In this document: positions 78 to 56,614 of the stretch, one piece after another | Numbering within the stretch: position 1 is the first letter of the stretch | How the letters are laid out: each line of letters starts with the position of its first letter | Virus record (IMG/VR): IMGVR_UViG_3300010998_000021 | Span: 47,468-111,467 of that record | DNA length: 64,000 nucleotides | From: a virus | Taxonomy: Duplodnaviria > Caudoviricetes | Reading direction: 5' to 3' (one strand) | Translations under genes and position numbers: made by a program | Notes under the pieces: model-generated | Told to the model about the DNA's origin: nothing | Database searches by the model: none | The model's input: only the letters and a program-made list of their open reading frames with translations

Positions 78-1183
78 TTACTCTACGTCAGTTGTGTCCT
101 CGATCATATCAAGAACATTACCATTTTTATCTTCAAGTAAATCAACCATTGTGTTAAGGAATATTCGCTATATATTCCCAAGCGTATAATACGCTTCTCG
201 TACTTTCATACGAAGTGCAGACTATATCTTCATCCTTGCGGATGCCTACCACTTCCACCATCAATAGCTTATGGTGTACTCCTTACGGATAGTCGTTGAA
301 CTTTACTCTATTCGAGTCTTAGCTGCTGGTTGCCCATTATTCCAATACTTAGGATTTAACCTTATATCATCTATATATTTCTTTCAGCTTTCGCAACATT
401 CACGCTTAGACTTATTTCATTCTTACGTTGTAGTATATATAGCTTTAGGGTTTTTCAGCAATTCAATAGGTTATCTTATCACGCACATTTCTGTACGCGC
501 ACACTATCATTATTTAATGTGATTGTCACAGAAGCAGGATCGCCTTCAGAAGAGAAGGAAAGCTCGAAATTTCTCTGAATAGACGCTTTGTAAGCAGTCA
601 TAATGAAAGGTGTAAGGGAATCATCCTCACCCTTATCCAGAGTAGACATTGTAATGTAATAATCCTTCGGAACTTTCTTATTATTGAAGGAAACCTTCTT
701 AACATTCTCAGTTCTCTCTACGATGTAACCAACTTCATACTCGGTATCGACCGCAATATCATTGTTGGTAGTAGCAGTGAACTTGTTAGAAGCATAAGTT
801 CCTGCAATCTGTGTATTGCCAAACTCGCCAGAAGCATACACGAACACTGTACCTGCCTTTGCGCCAATAATATCAAGTTCGCCAGCAGTAGTACATTTAA
901 TAGTTTTCTTCACGGCATAAGCAGCGGTATTATCAATAGTACCATCAGAGAACAGCGCATAAGCCTTGAATGGCATAACCTGTGCTTCGATAGTCATAGT
1001 ACCCTCAATTGGGTTATGGAACGCGATTGCACGCACACCTTTCTTCATAGCATATACACTATCGCCAGAAAGACCAGCAGTAGTGGTATTAGCTGTGTCG
1101 AAGAATAAAAACGGAGCCATCGTTTTCAGTACACGAATATCTACATCAGCGCACTGTCTATTAGCTTTATTAATATCAGGCAT
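78..1183 (-). CDS. Major tail (tube) protein, split by a group I intron: join(517..1183,78..145), about 244 aa
   Basis: Removing 146..516 joins ACA-T|TT-GAT to give ...GDPASVTITFDLLEDKNGNVLDMIEDTTDVE*. It follows the neck genes, has a strong SD, and ends in a tail-tube-like FELSFSSEGDPAS motif. Confidence 0.8.
146..516 (-). ncRNA. Group I intron without ORF (371 nt) in the tail tube gene
   Basis: P1 CACAU|UA pairs with UAGUGUG, giving U.G at the splice site; P2 hairpin with GAAA loop; core elements UUCAACGACUA and AAGAUAUAGUC; P9 CUUCGUAU-GAAA-GUACGAGAAG; terminal G; splicing restores the frame. Confidence 0.9.
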
Positions 1184-4652: not shown

Positions 4653-4838
4653 CTAAAATTTATGTTTAGCTTCATTATAAGATTTGATTAGTGCATCCAA
4701 CTTATCTGATTTCTTGAAAACCCAATAGCGATTTCCTGATGATGCATTAACTTTTGAAGCATAGCACTTTTCATTAAACGCGCACAAATAATGGAATAGT
4801 CTTAAAGAATAACAATAAAAGTTTTCATTGTTTTCCAT
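4653..4838 (-). CDS. Small DUF5659-like protein
   Basis: FYCYS..L..YL...N......YWVF pattern; SD GAGGTG. Confidence 0.55.
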   Translation of the reverse strand: MENNENFYCYSLRLFHYLCAFNEKCYASKVNASSGNRYWVFKKSDKLDALIKSYNEAKHKF

Positions 4839-4855
4839 ATTTGCACCTCTTATAT

Positions 4856-5797
4856 TTATGCCGCGAGATTGTCTTTAAGAATCTGTTCTATGTTATTAAA
4901 ATCTTTATACCAAATTTCAAGCAACTGGATTTTGTTATCATTTGCATATTTACGTTTACGCCTATCATGTTCTTTCTGATATTCAAGCTGTTCGTATGAT
5001 TGAGAATTAGCTGTGCCATCATGAAATTCGCCCTGATATTCAATAAGTATATTGTTATCTGGTAGATAGAAGTCATATGATAATAATCCACCACCAATAC
5101 CTTTTAAATCAGAAAATGATTTTTGCCATTCGAAATTAACATCGTTATTTTCAAGAAATGTTAGAATTTTCAATTCGCCTTTTGATGTATTGCATATAGG
5201 ACAGCCAGATGGACTTCTTTTCCCTATAAGATTATGTGCTTTAGTTTGCCAAACGTGTCCACATACTTTACATCTACATGTTATTGGTTCATCATCTTTT
5301 GTATATCTGCTTATAATATCTATTGTTCTATGATTCAAGTTACGTTCATTAAACTCGCTAATGAATTGTTCGTGAGATTTAATTCGATAATTTTGAACAT
5401 ATTTCATTGCACAATTTTTACATCCATAACCTCGAATTAACGAATAAGGCATCGAATCCCATTCATTTCCACATTTTTTACATTTGCATTTAATTTTCGT
5501 ATGAGAAGTTTTGTATTCACCAACAATTTCTGTATTTGGATTTATACCTTCAACTTCCTTTATAAATTCATCGTTTGTTTTTCTAACACATTCAGAAACA
5601 TAATCAATAGCACAATATTTGCATCCGTGTTCTGATTTAAGAATAGACATAGGCATTATTTCAAAATCATAGTCATGTATGTTGCAATGAAACATTATTG
5701 GCATTCTCATTTTTCTATAACGACCGATTACGTCTATATGTGGATGTTTCTTTTTAACATCATTAACAAAATCTTCATGTGTAATTACTTTAGACAT
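4856..5797 (-). CDS. Free-standing Zn-ribbon-repeat endonuclease with Vsr/DUF559-like PD-(D/E)XK domain (putative homing endonuclease)
   Basis: Three repeats of THEEF...IGEY...CxxC...GCxxC, then SKGE...YDFYLP...IEYQGEFH...D..K; paralog of the ORFs at 7455 and 11839. Confidence 0.75.
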   Translation of the reverse strand: MSKVITHEDFVNDVKKKHPHIDVIGRYRKMRMPIMFHCNIHDYDFEIMPMSILKSEHGCKYCAIDYVSECVRKTNDEFIKEVEGINPNTEIVGEYKTSHTKIKCKCKKCGNEWDSMPYSLIRGYGCKNCAMKYVQNYRIKSHEQFISEFNERNLNHRTIDIISRYTKDDEPITCRCKVCGHVWQTKAHNLIGKRSPSGCPICNTSKGELKILTFLENNDVNFEWQKSFSDLKGIGGGLLSYDFYLPDNNILIEYQGEFHDGTANSQSYEQLEYQKEHDRRKRKYANDNKIQLLEIWYKDFNNIEQILKDNLAA

Positions 5798-18399: not shown

Positions 18400-18405
18400 A
18401 TAAAA

Positions 18406-18479
18406 CTGCCCCTGTCGGACTCGAACCAACGACTTCTTGCTTAACAGGCAAGCGTTACTACCAACTGAACTAAAGGGCA
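18406..18479 (-). tRNA. tRNA-Asn(GTT)
   Basis: Full cloverleaf: TGCCCTT/AGGGGCA acceptor, CTGTTAA loop, GTTCGAG T-loop; CCA not encoded. Confidence 0.9.
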
Positions 18480-18497
18480 AAAATAAAGAAGAGTAGT

Positions 18498-22904: not shown

Positions 22905-22938
22905 ACAATTACCGCCTATTATTTCGTAATTTTTAAAA

Positions 22939-23028
22939 CGGCGAGAGTAGGATTTGAACCCACGAACCGCTCAACACGGTTTTCTGTTTTCAAGACAGAC
23001 GCTTTAAACCAAACTCAGCCATCTCGCC
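22939..23028 (-). tRNA. tRNA-Ser(TGA)
   Basis: GGCGAGA/TCTCGCC acceptor, CTTGAAA loop, long variable arm, GTTCAAAT T-loop. Confidence 0.9.
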
Positions 23029-23039
23029 AATCTGATAAA

Positions 23040-23124
23040 TGGGTAGAGTAGGAGTCGAACCTACGATGTTTCCAATGTGCCAGATTTACAGTCTGGTGCA
23101 ATCGCCAACTATGCATACCTACCC
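23040..23124 (-). tRNA. tRNA-Tyr(GTA)
   Basis: CCAGA-CTGTAAA-TCTGG anticodon arm and GTTCGACT T-loop. Confidence 0.9.
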
Positions 23125-23131
23125 ATGAATA

Positions 23132-50766: not shown

Positions 50767-51552
50767 ATGGCAGAAAATAGTTTTGATAATATCTCGTTGC
50801 CGGAAGAAAATTTAACACCACAAGAATACTTTGCTGTTGTGAAAGAAAGAAAATCTAAAGCAACAGATAAGCAGTTGATGGCAATTTATGATAACTGCTT
50901 GGAACTTCTTAATAAGTATAAGATCACAGGTCAATATAAAGGTGCAGCAAAATTAATTTTCCATCTTGAATGCATAGAGAAAGAACTTGAAATTGTTCGG
51001 ATGGGGATTGATACATTTGTATATCGTGATGACATTGAATACTACATAGACAATGTTGCATCTGACGTTGTTAAAATTATCGAATTGGAAAATTATCAGC
51101 GCGAGATACCTGATGAAATAGTAGATGTAATAGCGAAAGTGAAAGACAAATTCGATCAGTTATATGTTGTATTCACTGACTATACTGGTGAAGCAGAACG
51201 TCAAGTGGAAAAGGAAAGAATAGCAAAAGACCCTATTCTTTTTGGAACATTTCAGAGTCCAAAAGACAATGTTGTAATAGATCGCTTTTATTATCTTGGC
51301 GATTGGGTGGATGAGTATTGTAATTTAACACTTGATAAGATGGTTAATGAAACAAATAGAGAAATCCATAGGAAAATTGAACATACCATAAAAACACCAG
51401 ATGATATAGCGGAATTAAAAGAGCAGATCAATAGTCTTATTGCTAATAATAATGGTAATAGATTTACCGTAGATGAATCAAACAAAAAGAAGTCATTTTT
51501 CAGCAGTATCAAATCATTTATATCAAGAAAGTCTAAAGTCTTTTCATTTTAA
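50767..51552 (+). CDS. Conserved phage hypothetical protein
   Basis: 261 aa; LENYQREIPDE...VFTDYT...DPILFG...YLGDW.DE. Confidence 0.65.
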   Translation: MAENSFDNISLPEENLTPQEYFAVVKERKSKATDKQLMAIYDNCLELLNKYKITGQYKGAAKLIFHLECIEKELEIVRMGIDTFVYRDDIEYYIDNVASDVVKIIELENYQREIPDEIVDVIAKVKDKFDQLYVVFTDYTGEAERQVEKERIAKDPILFGTFQSPKDNVVIDRFYYLGDWVDEYCNLTLDKMVNETNREIHRKIEHTIKTPDDIAELKEQINSLIANNNGNRFTVDESNKKKSFFSSIKSFISRKSKVFSF

Positions 51553-51713
51553 GGGGATGAACAATATATGAATATTTGTCCTTATACAGAAGAAAAATGC
51601 AAATCAAATGATTGTACGAAGTGTAAGATTTATTTTGAATCTGAATACGGTTGTGACGGAAAATGCAGTAAATGTGAGGATTCTGATTTTTGTGACCATT
51701 TAGGCAAGAGGGA

Positions 51714-52082
51714 TTGATTTTGAAAACAAATATAGACCTAACGGAAAATAGAATGTTTTCAAGAAACACTTCTAATATACCGTTTTTAAAAACAAAACTT
51801 TGCAAAATAAAACCTTGGGACTTGCACTTTCTTAATTCCATTTATGATTTAGATTATTCTGGAATAGAAAATAGATATAAAGTGATTGCTACAGGTGGAA
51901 GATTTGAAAGGTTAGACTTTAGACTTTTAAAAGAAGAAGAATCAAGAGAGCATTGTGATCGTTGTGGTGTTTATCTTTATAAAAAGCCATATGAAAGGCT
52001 CACTCATAATGGCTTATGCGAAAAATGTAATTTAGAACTTGATAAACAATATTCAAAAAAATATAGAAAGCCTTGGATGTAA
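51714..52082 (+). CDS. Hypothetical Zn-ribbon protein
   Basis: CDRCG...LCEKC; terminator overlaps the stop. Confidence 0.5.
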   Translation: MILKTNIDLTENRMFSRNTSNIPFLKTKLCKIKPWDLHFLNSIYDLDYSGIENRYKVIATGGRFERLDFRLLKEEESREHCDRCGVYLYKKPYERLTHNGLCEKCNLELDKQYSKKYRKPWM

Positions 52083-52605
52083 GTTCAAGGCTTTTTGTCG
52101 TGCAAATAAAAATAGTTTTGAAAAACAATAGTTGTCTTAGAAAATAGTTTTTCAAAACATGTATTTTTTTGTGCGCAAAAATACTAAGTTTTTAAAAACA
52201 ATAATAGAATAACGAGGCAGTACACAGCAATACTCTGCTTAAAAAAATCTGTAGTCCTGATGCCGACTGACACACAAAAAGGGCATTGAACTCGTGACTG
52301 GCGAGAATAAATAAACAAGTGGTGGTTATCTGATGTGGGATACCGTCATTAGCCAAGGGCAGATATTTGGCTTACAAGCGGTAACTAATGTACTCCGAAG
52401 CGTCCGAATGAACGTAGTAGAACATTATCCTCCTGTTAGGGGGAAAACTATGCCAACCGAGCGGATGCCGATGAACGTAGCACATTGTAATATGATTGTC
52501 AATAAATAAAACAAAAAAATAATTGAATTACTTATTGACAAGCAGTAAATGATGTGCTATCTTATAATCATACAAAACACATAACACAGATAGGAGGGAA
52601 ATAAG

Positions 52606-53520
52606 ATGGCAGCAAGAGCATTGAAAATCTGGAATGAAGGCGAAAGAACGAATATATTCCAGTTAAGAGTGAATGATAGTATTTGCACATCAAATAAAAA
52701 GAAGGGGCGTAAATCTGAAGTGTATCCGTTTCAACTTGAGGATGCCAAAAAGATGATCGCATACTTTGAAGAACATGATATGTGGGTACAGTATTTACTC
52801 TTTGTTGTTGGAATCAACATGGCAAGGCGTGTAGGAGATACACTTACGCTTACATGGGAGCATATTTACAATCCGGCAAACGGTGAGATCAGAGATAACA
52901 TTCTTGAAATTACAGAAGATAAGACGGATAAATTGGCTAATCCAAAAATCAATAGCGCGGTTAGAAACGCAATCGCGCTTTATATAGAAAAGACTGGCGT
53001 TGATGTTACAGAAAATAATTATCATAATCCGATCTTTCTTCAGATGACAGGAACGCATAAAGGCAACGTAATAACCAGTGATGGTTATAGAAAAGCCTTA
53101 AAGAAAGCTGCTGATGCAGTAGGCATTACATATAATGTTGGTACACATTCCACAAGAAAGACATTCGGTATGATATCCAGAATGATTCATCCCAATGATT
53201 ATGACAGCATGGAATTACTACAGACAATCTATAACCATAGTGACACAAAAACTACAAGCCACTACATCGGACTTACAAAACAAAAAGTAGATCAGTATTA
53301 CGATGATATGGGCAAGTTCTTTAATGACTATGTTACTGGTAACAAGGAATATAAAGATGTTTCTGAAAAGCCTGTCATTAATGTAGAGGTATCTGATTTA
53401 AGAGATATTATTGCAATGGCTTATGCTGAAGGACAGCAGAATGCAAACATCAAAGACGCAAGCAAGCACATCGAAACAATCAACGAGATTATGAATATTG
53501 TAGATTCTCTTACTAAGTAA
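52606..53520 (+). CDS. Tyrosine recombinase with intact catalytic residues
   Basis: RRVGD (R), EDKT (K), HSTRK (HxxR), YNHS (H), TSHYIG (Y). Confidence 0.9.
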   Translation: MAARALKIWNEGERTNIFQLRVNDSICTSNKKKGRKSEVYPFQLEDAKKMIAYFEEHDMWVQYLLFVVGINMARRVGDTLTLTWEHIYNPANGEIRDNILEITEDKTDKLANPKINSAVRNAIALYIEKTGVDVTENNYHNPIFLQMTGTHKGNVITSDGYRKALKKAADAVGITYNVGTHSTRKTFGMISRMIHPNDYDSMELLQTIYNHSDTKTTSHYIGLTKQKVDQYYDDMGKFFNDYVTGNKEYKDVSEKPVINVEVSDLRDIIAMAYAEGQQNANIKDASKHIETINEIMNIVDSLTK

Positions 53521-53632: not shown

Positions 53633-54720
53633 ATGGCACTTAACAAAGCTAATATCACATGGAGTTGCAAGCAGATCGCTAAGATGGCTGGAAACGGAAC
53701 ATTCACTTTTGATAATATCATTCAGAGATCGTATGTATGGGAGCAGAAAAGAAAAAGTAATCTTATCCATTCTCTCATTGAAGGATTTCCTGTACCGCCA
53801 TTTTACGAAAAAAAGTAGATGGAAGAGTGTATGATTTTCTTGATGGGAAACAGAGAATCAATGCTATCCGTGGCTACATTGAGAATGAATATTTCTTGAT
53901 CGGTACACCTGAAGCAGAGGTTACATATACGGATGCAAACGGCGAAGAGCAGACCGCATGGATTGATGGAAAATACTTCAAAGACCTTCCTGAAGAGTTG
54001 CAGGATGCTATTAAGGATTATCACCTGACAATCTATTACTATGAAAATATCACACCTGAACAGGTTCGGATGCTGTTTGCGAAGCTGAATAACGGAAAAC
54101 CGCTTTCTGCAAAAGAGAGAAACATTGCTAACTGCGTTGACATCGTTACAGTTTCCGAGATTGGTAAGCATGAACTGTTTGCGGAAATTCTCACAGATAA
54201 GGCACTTGCAGCGAGAAGACATCTTCCTATCATTATGAAAATCTGGATGATGCTGAATAATGATATTGATGATGTATCTTTTGAAAGTAGCGAGTTCAAT
54301 GGGGTTATGCAGGAAACTATCATGACGGAAGACGAAAAAGCCGAGGTTGAAAAGGTTCTGGATAGAATCTATGCAATCTATAATGAACTTGAAAACTATG
54401 AGAATGCAAAGAAGGCAAAAGCTGTTAGGAAGAAGATGACTTCTGAAACACACATGGTTTCTCTTGTTCCTTTTATTGAGTATGCTATAACTGATAACAT
54501 CACGGATGTTGAGATGGCTGAATTTATGGTTAGGCTTTTCGGAAATGGAGTTCTCGTATCTGATGAGTATGCAGACGCTTGCAAAGGTGGATCGGCTAAA
54601 AACGTCAATATCAAGAGAAGGAATAATGAAATTGAAAAGGTATGGTTTGCATTTATCAACGATAACTCTTTTGTAGAGGAAACGGAAGATGATGAAAACC
54701 ATGATTGCAACGATTTCTAA
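53633..54720 (+). CDS. DUF262 (ParB/Srx-fold, GmrSD-N-like) protein split by a -1 frameshift at 53809-53815
   Basis: IQRSYVW...LIHSLIEGFPVPP in one frame; FLDGKQR...FAKLNNGKPL in the -1 frame; junction GAA AAA AAG TAG. Confidence 0.8.
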
Positions 54721-54732
54721 TGCATAATAATT

Positions 54733-54763
54733 ATGGTGTATCACTTAACTGTGGTACACCATA
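54733..54763 (+). terminator. Hairpin after the DUF262 gene
   Basis: TATGGTGTATCAC-ttaact-GTGGTACACCATA; no T-run. Confidence 0.4.
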
Positions 54764-54785
54764 ACGATTAAAGAGGAGATCACAA

Positions 54786-55094
54786 GTGAGCAATATTGAT
54801 TGGACTAAGTATTTTATAGGTCTCGATTATGAAAAGGAAAAATTATTTATAGGAGTTGGAAAATTAAAAAACAATGGAATGATTCAGTTTTTAAAAAAAT
54901 CAGATGATCGCACAGTTGAAATAATCAATGCGGTTGGAAGATTCTTAAAAATGAAACTTAACAAAAGCAAGAAGAATTATTTTGGTTATGATTTAAATAG
55001 GATTGGCAAACTTGTATTGATTAAACATGGATATGATTTTGAAGTGTTTAAGAAAAGGAAGGACACCATAACAAGACCTATTCAAGATTTCTGA
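54786..55094 (+). CDS. Hypothetical basic protein upstream of mazF
   Basis: SD GAGGAG, GTG start. Confidence 0.55.
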   Translation: MSNIDWTKYFIGLDYEKEKLFIGVGKLKNNGMIQFLKKSDDRTVEIINAVGRFLKMKLNKSKKNYFGYDLNRIGKLVLIKHGYDFEVFKKRKDTITRPIQDF

Positions 55095-55115
55095 TATTAG
55101 ATTGGAGGCTTAAAT

Positions 55116-55574
55116 ATGTCAACAACAAAATCTATGGAAAAATTGAATACGAAAATGACTTTCTTTATTAACTATGATGGTGAAAATGTAAGTTATATTG
55201 ATTCGGAAAATCATAGTATATGTTGTTGTGATATTTGGATGGCTTCTTTACCAAGTAACAATGGTAGCATACAGAATGGGCATAGACCAGTTCTTATAAT
55301 ATCTAATAACAAGAATAATAAATATAGTACAGTTGTCAATGTAATACCAATGACAACCAAGATGAACAAAAGGCATTTGCCTTGCCACGTTTCTATATGG
55401 GATTACAAAAGGTTTGGACTATATGCGCCAAGTACGATCATGGTAGAGCAGATTACGACTATCCCAAAAGATAATTTAAAATATTATATGGGAAGAATAG
55501 ATGATGAAGCTATTCTGCTTGATATTTATGAAGCAATAAGAACGCAATTTCCAATTTTAGATAATGCAAAATAA
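55116..55574 (+). CDS. mazF: PemK/MazF-family endoribonuclease
   Basis: DIWMASL....GSIQNG.RPVLIISNN..N..S..V.VIPMTT...LP.HV...S.I..EQITTI.K. Confidence 0.85.
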   Translation: MSTTKSMEKLNTKMTFFINYDGENVSYIDSENHSICCCDIWMASLPSNNGSIQNGHRPVLIISNNKNNKYSTVVNVIPMTTKMNKRHLPCHVSIWDYKRFGLYAPSTIMVEQITTIPKDNLKYYMGRIDDEAILLDIYEAIRTQFPILDNAK

Positions 55575-55636
55575 GGCAGGATATTGACACTTTCAAATTT
55601 TTGTGATACATATTTATTATGGGTGGAGGTGTCATT

Positions 55637-56614
55637 ATGAACACAAAGGAATTGCTTGATGAATATTTTAAAACAAAGCCAGAATCTACGACTGCTAAAA
55701 CAAGAGGGCAAATTGACAGGAAGGAGTTATATGCCTATGAGAAAAAGATAGGGAAACAGCTCGTTGATATGGACTGTTTTGAAATAGCTGATATGCTAAA
55801 ATCGTTCAGTAACCAAGTGTTTACTAAAAAGACTTATAAAATGTCATATCGAACATATGATTTCCTATTGACTATTTTGCGTGATTTCTTTGAATGGTAT
55901 ATTGATAATTATAAAATCATTAAAAATCCTTGCAACGATAAACGAATAAGAGGAAGAAATGCAATTAAAATTTTCAATGATACCAGTGAAGCATTTACTA
56001 AAGAATCTATGGAAGATTTGATTGCAAATATTAGAAATAGCACTTTAGAAGAATATGCTGATTATGAAGAAGCAATTATCAGAATGTTTTACGAAGGATT
56101 TCCAGAAGCAATAGATATAGTTAATTTGAAATGCAGCGATATGAATCACGAAAAGAAAACAGCTATTGTAAGGGGTAGAGAAATACAACTTTCAGATCGT
56201 CTTTATGAACTGCTTGTTAAAATTCATAATATGGATGAATATCCGGCTTATCGTGGATCGTATCTATTATTAAGTTACAGAGATTCATATTTTAAATTTC
56301 CTACAAGGGAAAGTTTTAAAAATGAATTTCAAGATAGACCACCTGAATATTGGGCTGGACATATTTCACGATTATTTAATCGAGATATTAAAGTAAAAAA
56401 TGATATAAATATAAACGCAAGGACACTATATCTGTGTGGCTTCTACGATTATATTGTTGATAGGGTTGGAAAGGAAGAAGCTAACAGGCTTATCTATTCT
56501 ATTCGTAATACAGAAGATACAAAGAAACTAATGGGTCTTGCAGAAGAGTATGGTATTACAGAGCAGAATGTAACAACGCTTAAAAAGATTCTTGTTCCTT
56601 TTGTGCAAGAATGA
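55637..56614 (+). CDS. Catalytically degenerate tyrosine-recombinase-fold protein, MrpR(YopR)-like repressor candidate
   Basis: N-terminal core-binding domain (LRDFFEWY...NPC); IRMFYEG...IVNLK..D lacking the catalytic R and HxxR; own promoter near 55585. Confidence 0.6.
   Translation: MNTKELLDEYFKTKPESTTAKTRGQIDRKELYAYEKKIGKQLVDMDCFEIADMLKSFSNQVFTKKTYKMSYRTYDFLLTILRDFFEWYIDNYKIIKNPCNDKRIRGRNAIKIFNDTSEAFTKESMEDLIANIRNSTLEEYADYEEAIIRMFYEGFPEAIDIVNLKCSDMNHEKKTAIVRGREIQLSDRLYELLVKIHNMDEYPAYRGSYLLLSYRDSYFKFPTRESFKNEFQDRPPEYWAGHISRLFNRDIKVKNDININARTLYLCGFYDYIVDRVGKEEANRLIYSIRNTEDTKKLMGLAEEYGITEQNVTTLKKILVPFVQE

What the first reader, a model, noticed from the sequence alone, without database searches (positions are those of the whole stretch)
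52215..52490. GC-richer non-coding element directly upstream of the recombinase
Seen: ~270 nt with no credible ORF and composition unlike the AT-rich spacers. It has an imperfect direct repeat CCGAAGCGTCCGAATGAACGTAG / CCGAGCGGATGCCGATGAACGTAG, a repeated GATGCCGA, and stems such as AGCCAA/TTGGCT and CTCGT-gact-GGCGAG. It marks the boundary between the array and the recombinase. Inference: structured ncRNA (regulatory or recombinase-associated) or an att-like site with arm repeats.
Basis: partly seen in the sequence, partly recalled or inferred. Interest (0 to 1): 0.55.

Follow-up and report, generated by a model that had tools for sequence, protein, structure and literature searches.

The report
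Compact ARRPOF-like folded RNA in phages
The GC-richer gap upstream of the phage recombinase holds a ~215-base conserved, knotted nucleic-acid fold that also occurs in tiny single-stranded DNA viruses of ruminant guts and shares its core with ARRPOF, a plasmid RNA of unknown function, so it is a small portable module and not a partner of the recombinase.

Summary
Window 52215-52490 is non-coding and GC-richer (0.42-0.45 against about 0.30). Its core, 52249-52464 on the + strand, is a conserved structured element.

It matches no Rfam family at threshold. Homologues exist in 8 ruminant Microviridae (just upstream of the replication gene VP4), one other large viral contig and three metagenome contigs. 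That gives six lineages at 58-75% identity.

Across 10 sequences, six helices and one pseudoknot are 96.3% paired (35-45% in slid controls). Of 40 pairs, 23 show compensatory changes. G-U pairs outnumber A-C 36 to 1, so the + strand is the one that folds.

The junction GGUGGU-NNNCN-GAUGUGGG, the enclosing stem, the GGGCAG-loop hairpin and the pseudoknot reappear in the Rfam ARRPOF consensus. ARRPOF scores are far below threshold (8-16 bits; cut-off 127), and the 5' half and the 3' hairpins differ.

The recombinase is adjacent in only one of six lineages, and no bacterial att partner was found.

Best reading: a new compact variant of the ARRPOF kind, probably acting as RNA in replication or maintenance of mobile elements. 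Folded single-stranded DNA remains a live rival. Transcription was not shown.

The parts
52249..52464 (+). Whole conserved element (216 nt)
   Evidence: CM R1 match of 145.4 bits, E 3e-46. It is the only copy in the 111,467-bp virus record. Homologous to 12 other instances.
52252..52269 (+). P1 hairpin: 52252-52256 pairs with 52265-52269
   Evidence: 97.9% of cells paired. One pair switches A-U to G-C (3 against 7 sequences). Coordinates.
52270..52281 (+). Conserved A-rich single strand ACACACAAAAAG
   Evidence: Near-invariant in alignments A1, A2 and A4.
52291..52305 (+). P2 hairpin CUCG[UGACUGG]CGAG with a conserved 7-nt loop UGRCUGG
   Evidence: An alignment-free count finds 4-6 contiguous pairs in 10 of 10 sequences. 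Three stem positions covary (C-G/U-A, U-A/A-U, C-G/U-A/G-U).
52319..52339 (+). Conserved junction GUGGUGGU-UAUCU-GAUGUGGG, matching ARRPOF model positions from 143
   Evidence: Invariant blocks in A4. Aligns to the ARRPOF consensus GGuGGUauuCUGauuuGGG.
52327..52331 (+). Pseudoknot, 5' strand (UAUCU); pairs with 52361-52365
   Evidence: Found by an all-column-pairs scan. 10 of 10 sequences pair at all 5 positions, and 4 of 5 pairs covary with 3 pair types each.
52341..52383 (+). P4 stem (52341-52346 with 52378-52383) enclosing P5
   Evidence: 5 of 7 pairs show compensatory changes; 95.7% of cells paired. Corresponds to the 9-bp stem of the ARRPOF model.
52351..52372 (+).
   Evidence: 100% paired, 3 covarying pairs. 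The loop begins with invariant GGGC, and its 3' half (52361-52365) forms the pseudoknot.
52386..52427 (+). P6: variable hairpin (52386-52391 with 52422-52427).
   Evidence: 5 of 6 pairs covary; 83% paired in A4, with some misalignment. Length and tip differ in every lineage.
52428..52444 (+). P7 hairpin UCCUCC[UGUUA]GGGGGA
   Evidence: 100% paired. The 5' strand varies C/U opposite invariant G's, giving many G-U pairs.
52445..52454 (+). Conserved 3' tail AAACUAUGCC
   Evidence: Conserved as AAACUNUGYY. It may pair with the GGGC of the P5 loop: 92.5% paired against 18-50% in slid controls, but with no two-sided covariation.
52458..52481 (+).
   Evidence: Exact 10-mer ATGAACGTAG at 52408 and 52471. 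Present only in the window and L031.
52478..52559 (.). 37-nt imperfect inverted repeat that holds the recombinase promoter-like site (TTGACA-17-TATCTT, 52535-52563)
   Evidence: Not part of the conserved element.
52606..53520 (+). Tyrosine recombinase, 304 aa
   Evidence: PF00589, E 5.3e-12. phrog_216 integrase, E 6e-28.
52112..52202 (.). Five overlapping matches to the phage-wide palindromic motif ATAGTTTTTCAAAACA just upstream
   Evidence: 41 matches in the window against 4.0 expected, in 0 of 100 shuffles. Clustered at 30-52.2 kb.

Best explanation
Window 52249-52464 (+) is one copy of an uncatalogued family of ~215-230-nt structured elements carried by mobile elements of ruminant gut communities.

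Shown:
- The + strand folds into six helices (P1, P2, P4, P5, P6, P7) and one pseudoknot.
- The pseudoknot ties five junction bases (between GGUGGU and GAUGUGGG) to the 3' half of the P5 loop.
- This pseudoknotted core has the same sequence motifs and the same topology as the 3' domain of the ARRPOF motif (Rfam RF02933).
- The 5' half, P6, P7 and the tail are different from ARRPOF.

Inferred:
- It is made as RNA, co-oriented with the surrounding + strand genes.
- It folds on its own into a compact knotted body.
- It serves the replication or maintenance of whatever element carries it. This is suggested for ARRPOF in plasmid pKH9 and fits its position directly upstream of the replication-initiator gene in eight microviruses.
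- It does not work with the neighbouring recombinase, whose adjacency is an accident of this one phage lineage.
For: Conservation:
- blastn found 75-78% identity to the VP2-VP4 intergenic region of 8 of 50,697 phage records, all Microviridae.
- CM R1 then confirmed 3 of 6 metagenome loci and 1 of 12 viral loci.
- The lineages are 58-75% identical to one another.

Structure:
- 96.3% of 381 cells are paired, against 35-45% for partners slid by 1-3 columns.
- 23 of 40 pairs have changes on both sides.
- 0 of 500 shuffles reach the observed values.
- The pseudoknot is 100% paired, with 4 of 5 pairs covarying.

Strand: 36 G-U cells against 1 A-C cell.

ARRPOF link:
- The only Rfam family hitting the core is RF02933, always over the core (model 143-253 in L032 and the window; a full-length alignment reliable only from position 143 in L002). 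Scores are L032 16.2 bits, E 0.096; L002 13.3 bits; window 52321-52383 8.3 bits.
- In the L032 alignment, 19 of 20 upper-case consensus positions match (my count).
- The consensus segments auuCU and aGaau are mutually complementary. This is the same pseudoknot, and the covariance model does not score it.

Function:
- ARRPOF lies in a 1-kb gene-free region of pKH9 that is sufficient for replication (PMC5737381, passages read).
- ARRPOF RNA folds without protein into a ring-like homodimer. Its pseudoknot P13, formed by J4/5 and L7, switches between intra- and intermolecular pairing (PMC12990946, passages read).
- In microvirus L001 the element ends 78 nt before the VP4 ORF.
- In the window it lies 2.3 kb downstream of a sliding-clamp gene.
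Against: - No transcript evidence. Contigs of three RNA runs covered parts of the recombinase gene and 51966-52169 but not the element, which is uninformative either way.
- No promoter-like or terminator-like site brackets the element.
- ARRPOF scores are at chance level by score alone. The same search 'rings' in 7 of 14 control genomes at E<=10. Only 3 of 7 family members tested gave any ARRPOF hit.
- I could not obtain a real ARRPOF sequence to align.
- ARRPOF's own function is unsettled. Its discoverers allow single-stranded DNA, and a later suggestion concerns transcription of a fructose pathway.
- Cumulative GC skew shows no turning point near 52 kb, so nothing marks a bidirectional origin here.
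- Only six lineages are known, so the shuffle statistics overstate independence.
Confidence: 0.45

Rival explanations
1. The element works as folded single-stranded DNA. It would be a single-strand origin or priming signal (sso/ssi type) that starts complementary-strand synthesis on the microvirus virion strand, and lagging-strand or transfer-strand priming in other carriers.
For: - The folding strand is the + strand. In all 8 microvirus records this is the strand of the annotated VP genes. By established knowledge of Microviridae it is therefore the packaged strand.
- Microviruses need such a signal, and none is known for these viruses.
- The ARRPOF discoverers state that plasmid motifs of this kind could act as ssDNA (PMC5737381).
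- No promoter or terminator brackets the element.
Against: - 36 of 381 paired cells are G-T/G-U wobbles, and two pairs are invariant wobbles. These are weaker in DNA.
- A pseudoknotted core with long invariant unpaired purine runs is unlike the long imperfect hairpins of known sso elements (recalled).
- The CS-6 hexamer TAGCG[T/A] of ssoA (recalled) is absent from 10 of 10 sequences.
- Two carriers are viral contigs of more than 110 kb, taken here to be dsDNA phages.
- ARRPOF folds as RNA in cryo-EM.
Confidence: 0.22
2. It is a portable accessory non-coding RNA that acts on the host (a decoy, a regulator of host transcription, or anti-defence) and is unrelated to replication.
For: - The same module sits in unrelated carriers with unrelated flanks. 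Homology is limited to the element, which implies horizontal spread of a self-contained unit.
- In the window it borders accessory genes: a recombinase, a GmrSD_N-like protein, a PemK/MazF-like protein and a second integrase-like gene.
Against: - No target, partner protein or expression evidence.
- The position next to the replication initiator is fixed in all 8 microviruses.
- A 5.4-5.7-kb virus has little room for accessory cargo.
Confidence: 0.2
3. It is the attachment site (attP) or a regulatory or guide element of the adjacent tyrosine recombinase.
For: It sits immediately upstream of the recombinase gene in the window and in L031. A local direct repeat ATGAACGTAG x2 is present.
Against: - A recombinase is adjacent in 1 of 6 lineages, and there is none in the microviruses.
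- Compensatory base changes and G-U asymmetry are not expected of a double-stranded att site.
- Two scans of species genomes gave no counterpart: 0 matches, and 9 pattern matches of which none passed the model.
- The direct repeat is lineage-specific.
Confidence: 0.04

Closest known systems
ARRPOF RNA motif (Rfam RF02933; Weinberg et al. 2017, PMC5737381; cryo-EM homodimer reviewed in PMC12990946)
   Same: - Junction GGUGGU-N3-C-N-GAU-N-UGGG.
- It is followed by a stem that encloses a hairpin whose loop begins GGGC(A)G.
- The five bases after GGUGGU are complementary to the loop's 3' half, forming the same pseudoknot.
- By helix order this corresponds to J4/5, P5, P7/L7 and P13 of the cryo-EM description. 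That mapping is my inference.
- Both are carried by mobile elements.
   Different: - Scores 8-16 bits against a gathering score of 127.2.
- The 5' half has no similarity (low posterior probability).
- The two sub-hairpins inside the ARRPOF stem (32 and 18 model positions) are replaced by 1 and 2 nt.
- This element continues 3' with P6, P7 and a conserved tail that ARRPOF lacks.
- Carriers are ruminant-gut phages and microviruses, not Fusobacterium plasmids.
Single-strand origins of rolling-circle plasmids (ssoA, ssoT, ssoU, ssoW) and G4-type ssi signals (recalled from the literature, not read here)
   Same: Non-coding, a few hundred nt, strand-specific folding, carried by ssDNA-replicating elements, near the Rep gene.
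   Different: A pseudoknot and invariant unpaired runs in place of one long imperfect hairpin. No CS-6 hexamer in 0 of 10 sequences. Also present in large viral contigs of more than 110 kb.
Large 'ornate' phage and plasmid RNAs of unknown function (ROOL, GOLLD, OLE; GEBRO and PAGEV plasmid motifs)
   Same: Orphan, highly structured and associated with mobile elements. Several self-assemble (PMC12990946 and PMC12641628, passages read).
   Different: No Rfam match to any of them. The element is much smaller than ROOL, GOLLD or OLE.

Membership tests
ARRPOF (RF02933) | Scores at or above Rfam's gathering threshold (127.2 bits) with the family covariance model | tested here: not met
   Window 8.3 bits, L032 16.2 bits, L002 13.3 bits. 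No hit for L001, L003, L034 or L037's record.
ARRPOF (RF02933) | 3'-domain core: conserved junction GGuGGU..CUG..GGG, an enclosing stem, a hairpin with a GGGCaG loop, and a junction-loop pseudoknot | tested here: met
   Alignments to the model consensus. Covariation of the stem, hairpin and pseudoknot in this family. The ARRPOF consensus segments auuCU and aGaau are complementary.
ARRPOF (RF02933) | 5' domain (model positions 1-142) and the two extra hairpins inside the 3'-domain stem | tested here: not met
   No ARRPOF hit on the 5' half of L032 at E<=10. The 5' part of the L002 alignment has posterior 0.2-0.5. Model insertions of 32 and 18 positions are matched by 1 and 2 nt.
ARRPOF (RF02933) | Ring-like homodimer through a 12-bp intermolecular helix (P10) and swapped pseudoknots | not testable with these tools
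   Described in PMC12990946. No RNA 3D or complex tool was available, and I saw no conserved palindrome by eye.
ARRPOF (RF02933) | Lies in a plasmid region needed for replication | not testable with these tools
   Context here is phages and microviruses. No match in 72,556 plasmid records beyond two chance-level 39-nt hits (E 0.7) inside a Psychrobacter restriction gene.
ssoA-type single-strand origin | Strand-specific fold on the strand that is single-stranded during replication | tested here: met
   36 G-U against 1 A-C. The + strand is the strand of the annotated VP genes in the microvirus records.
ssoA-type single-strand origin | Conserved CS-6 hexamer TAGCG[T/A] in the terminal loop (feature recalled, not read here) | tested here: not met
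   Absent from 10 of 10 sequences.
Phage attP / recombinase site | Constant adjacency to the recombinase gene | tested here: not met
   Adjacent in the window and L031 only, 1 of 6 lineages.
Phage attP / recombinase site | A core shared with a bacterial attB | tested here: not met
   Two degenerate-pattern scans of the genome collection gave 0 matches and 9 pattern matches, of which 0 passed the model. The patterns were strict, so a short core could be missed.
Any Rfam 15 family | Match at the gathering score | tested here: not met
   Four matches in the whole window (a group I intron and 3 tRNAs), none in 52000-52700. Nothing credible at E<=10.

The most novel reading that the evidence does not exclude
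A miniature ARRPOF-type RNA is a portable replication module that does not depend on a Rep protein. It would fold, and perhaps dimerise through its switchable junction-loop pseudoknot, into a body that acts on DNA at the carrier's origin as primer, loader or clamp-like ring. It would have been exchanged between ssDNA microviruses, a phage of more than 110 kb, and other mobile elements. That would make it the first functional structured RNA known in Microviridae and give ARRPOF a testable function.
Probability: 0.15. Interest if true: 0.85.

Novelty: new variant of a known kind. Interest (0 to 1): 0.6.

Why it matters
ARRPOF is one of the few natural RNAs shown to self-assemble, and its function is unknown. 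A smaller relative gives three things:
- It keeps only the junction-stem-hairpin-pseudoknot core, which marks the part of the fold that selection preserves.
- It places that core in 5.4-5.7-kb microviruses, directly upstream of the replication gene.
- It offers simple test systems, such as microvirus or plasmid replication with and without the element, in either orientation.

I found no paper describing a structured non-coding element in Microviridae. Two full-text searches listed none with 'Microviridae' among the top results. The catalogue PMC10690425 of over ten thousand phage RNA candidates was seen only as a search listing and could contain it unnamed.

Tried and rejected
- Single-sequence folding: z-scores of -0.12 and +0.46. 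Uninformative.
- Rfam: nothing at gathering or at E<=10.
- First RNAalifold structure: its helices at alignment A2 columns 46-62, 63-68/220-225 and 82-95 were replaced by the P2 hairpin and the pseudoknot after column-pair analysis.
- A closing helix between the 5' flank and the 3' tail: 7 bp in most microviruses, but absent in L003 and L005 and placed differently elsewhere. Rejected.
- A second pseudoknot (loop GGGC with the tail): compatible but without two-sided covariation. Kept only as tentative.
- Coding reading of the 58-aa ORF: rejected.
- RNA evidence: contigs of three RNA runs covered 52555-52730, 52901-53051, 53214-53467 and 51966-52169, not the element. No conclusion either way.
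- Pattern scans that gave only chance matches under the model: 21 of 21 viral loci, 11 loci, 0 loci, 9 genome loci, 7 loci with no Rfam hit, and 24 loci.
- Plasmid collection: no real match.
- Relatives of the recombinase in viral contigs: none found, so the reverse test (recombinase homologues without the element) could not be made.
- Getting a real ARRPOF sequence: an accession recalled from memory was not in the collection. The Weinberg 2017 supplement could not be read.
- Earlier notes of this scan held nothing on this sequence or genome.

Full report
**What is at the coordinates.** The stretch 52200-52499 has GC 0.415-0.445, while the flanks have 0.255-0.31. It lies between a 122-aa ORF that ends at 52082 and a 304-aa tyrosine recombinase at 52606-53520 (PF00589, E 5e-12; phrog_216). 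Only short ORFs cross it. The longest, 58 aa, has no Pfam match, and its frame hits a stop after seven codons in the microvirus homologues (read from alignment A1). The window is the last 64 kb of a 111,467-bp virus record that CheckV estimates to be 72% complete, and the element occurs once in it. Rfam finds a group I intron and three tRNAs elsewhere in the window but nothing here, and nothing credible at E<=10. Folding energy of the single sequence is no better than shuffles on either strand.

**Conservation.** A sensitive blastn against 50,697 phage records found 8 records, all Microviridae from elk, yak and cattle samples. They match window 52265-52390 at 75-78% identity. In every one of those 5.4-5.8-kb genomes the match lies in the non-coding stretch between VP2 and VP4, on the strand of the annotated genes. 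A covariance model (R1) built from these sequences extends the homology to window 52249-52464 (145 bits).

Pattern scans followed by the model gave these further copies:
- L031, a 28-kb metagenome contig with the same gene order as the window, including the recombinase.
- L032 and L034, short contigs with other neighbours (3 of 6 metagenome loci passed).
- L037, in a 120-kb viral contig (1 of 12 loci passed).

All other pattern matches failed the model. Two scans of the genome collection gave nothing, and the plasmid collection gave nothing real. The 13 copies form six lineages that are 58-75% identical to each other. The flanks are unrelated.

**Structure.** RNAalifold's first proposal was partly wrong. 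Scanning all column pairs of a 10-sequence alignment (A4) for compensatory changes, then reading the alignment, gave this structure:
- P1.
- P2, a hairpin with an invariant-length loop UGRCUGG.
- A conserved junction, GGUGGU-NNNCN-GAUGUGGG.
- P4, which encloses the hairpin P5. The 10-nt P5 loop starts with GGGC.
- A pseudoknot between the five junction bases NNNCN and the 3' half of the P5 loop.
- P6, a hairpin of variable length.
- P7 (CCUCC/GGGGG).
- A conserved tail, AAACUNUGYY.

On this structure 96.3% of 381 cells form standard pairs, against 35-45% when the partners are slid by 1-3 columns. Of 40 pairs, 23 have changes on both sides, and none of 500 shuffles reaches any observed measure. 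The pseudoknot is paired in 10 of 10 sequences at all five positions, with three pair types at each of four positions. P2 was checked without an alignment and has 4-6 contiguous pairs in 10 of 10 sequences, with three covarying positions.

G-U pairs number 36, while A-C (which would be G-U on the other strand) numbers 1. The + strand is therefore the one that folds. With only six lineages the shuffle statistics overstate independence, so the slid-partner control is the fairer one. A possible second pseudoknot (loop GGGC with the tail) is compatible but has no two-sided covariation. A closing helix between the flanks is not conserved.

Both named stems are real (P5 and P2). The direct repeat is real, with an exact ATGAACGTAG at 52408 and 52471. 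One copy is in the variable tip of P6, the other is outside the conserved element, and both are confined to the window and L031. The 11-mer count is only weakly above chance.

**Link to ARRPOF.** When the homologues were scanned at a permissive threshold, L032's core hit Rfam RF02933 (ARRPOF) at 16.2 bits, E 0.096 in a 401-nt search, over model positions 143-253. The same family is the best sub-threshold hit at window 52321-52383 (8.3 bits) and in microvirus L002 (13.3 bits). L001, L003, L034 and L037's record gave none.

By score alone these hits are chance-level. The gathering score is 127.2, and 7 of 14 control genomes also give hits at E<=10. The alignments carry the weight:
- The ARRPOF consensus reads GGuGGUauuCUGauuuGGG, then a stem, then a hairpin with the loop GGGCaGaauU, then the closing strand.
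- 19 of 20 upper-case consensus positions match in L032 (my count).
- These are the same bases that are invariant in this family.
- The consensus segments auuCU and aGaau are complementary to each other, which is the pseudoknot found independently here. The covariance model does not score that feature.

The 5' half shows no similarity (low posterior probability). ARRPOF's two inner hairpins (32 and 18 model positions) are replaced by 1 and 2 nt. ARRPOF ends where this element goes on with P6, P7 and the tail. I read this as a shared core with different peripheral domains, that is, a new variant and not a member of the family. I could not fetch a real ARRPOF sequence for direct alignment.

**What is known of ARRPOF (passages read).** It was found in Fusobacterium plasmid pKH9, inside a 1-kb gene-free region that is sufficient for replication. 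Its discoverers note it might act as ssDNA (PMC5737381). Reviews of later cryo-EM work describe a 255-nt RNA with P1-P8 and four pseudoknots. It forms a ring-like homodimer by swapping its 3' domain P5-P8, and P13 (J4/5 with L7) alternates between intra- and intermolecular pairing. The reviews also report a suggested role in transcription of a fructose-associated pathway and a central space that could admit a DNA duplex (PMC12990946; PMC12641628; bioRxiv 10.64898/2026.07.01.735769). By helix order, the junction, P4, P5 and pseudoknot described here correspond to J4/5, P5, P7/L7 and P13. That mapping is my inference.

**Context and function.** The recombinase follows the element only in the window and L031. 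It has its own promoter-like site (52535-52563) inside a separate 37-nt inverted repeat. The microviruses have no recombinase. In L001 the element ends 78 nt before the VP4 (replication initiator) ORF, with a TATAAT-like box and a strong Shine-Dalgarno sequence in between (read). In the window the upstream block includes a sliding-clamp homologue (phrog_947) and a 'transposase' phrog. Five matches to a phage-wide palindromic motif sit just upstream; that motif has 41 matches in the window against 4 expected. No promoter-like or terminator-like site brackets the element, and GC skew shows no turning point. RNA-run contigs did not cover the element, which decides nothing.

I therefore commit, at moderate confidence, to a self-folding RNA that serves replication or maintenance of its carrier. 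Folded ssDNA (an sso-like priming signal) is the main rival, and a host-directed accessory RNA is next. An att or recombinase site is very unlikely. The ssoA hexamer TAGCG[T/A] (recalled) is absent from all 10 sequences.

**Habitat.** The DNA runs that hold at least half of the sampled words of window 51700-53500 number 17. By their records they are mostly gut metagenomes, including bovine and goat. The microviruses come from elk, yak and cattle.

**Verdict.** It is a new, compact variant of the ARRPOF kind, and its function remains untested.

Noticed in passing
window 30000-52202 (e.g. 31835, 32542, 33581, 52144): A palindromic 16-mer, ATAGTTTTTCAAAACA (core GTTTTTCAAAAC), has 41 matches at up to 3 mismatches, against 4.0 expected (0 of 100 shuffles). 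The matches cluster in intergenic spacers and stop at the element.
   Followed up: partly
window 52478-52559: A 37-nt imperfect inverted repeat (TAGCACAT...TTGTCAATAA / TTATTGACAA...ATGTGCTA) spans the recombinase's promoter-like site. It could be an operator or the recombinase's own target site.
   Followed up: no
window 197-504 (-): Group I intron, Rfam RF00028, 71.8 bits, E 3e-16.
   Followed up: no
window 18405-18480, 22938-23029, 23039-23125 (-): Three phage tRNA genes: Asn-GTT, Ser-TGA and Tyr-GTA.
   Followed up: no
window 53827-56614: Downstream of the recombinase lie a GmrSD_N-like ORF (weak here; E 1.6e-16 for the longer form in L031), a PemK/MazF-like ORF (55116-55574, E 4e-22) and a second integrase-like ORF (55619-56614, phrog_1). 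Together they look like an accessory or defence-type cluster in a phage.
   Followed up: no
L006 (MG945285) 5054-5194: This microvirus carries a second, partial copy of the element's 5' part (P1, P2 and the AAUAAAU run; 74 bits), about 30 nt upstream of the full copy.
   Followed up: no
L001 (MG945492) 4697-4966 (-) and about 5040-5075: A - strand ORF of 89 aa that looks ribbon-helix-helix-like by eye, in a microvirus whose annotated genes are all on the + strand. A GC-rich hairpin is followed by a T-run on the - strand, between that ORF and the element. L032 also has a small RHH-like ORF next to its element.
   Followed up: no
window 50767-51552 (+): A 261-aa ORF matches phrog_10081, annotated 'transposase' (E 4e-95). 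It lies between the sliding-clamp gene and the element.
   Followed up: no
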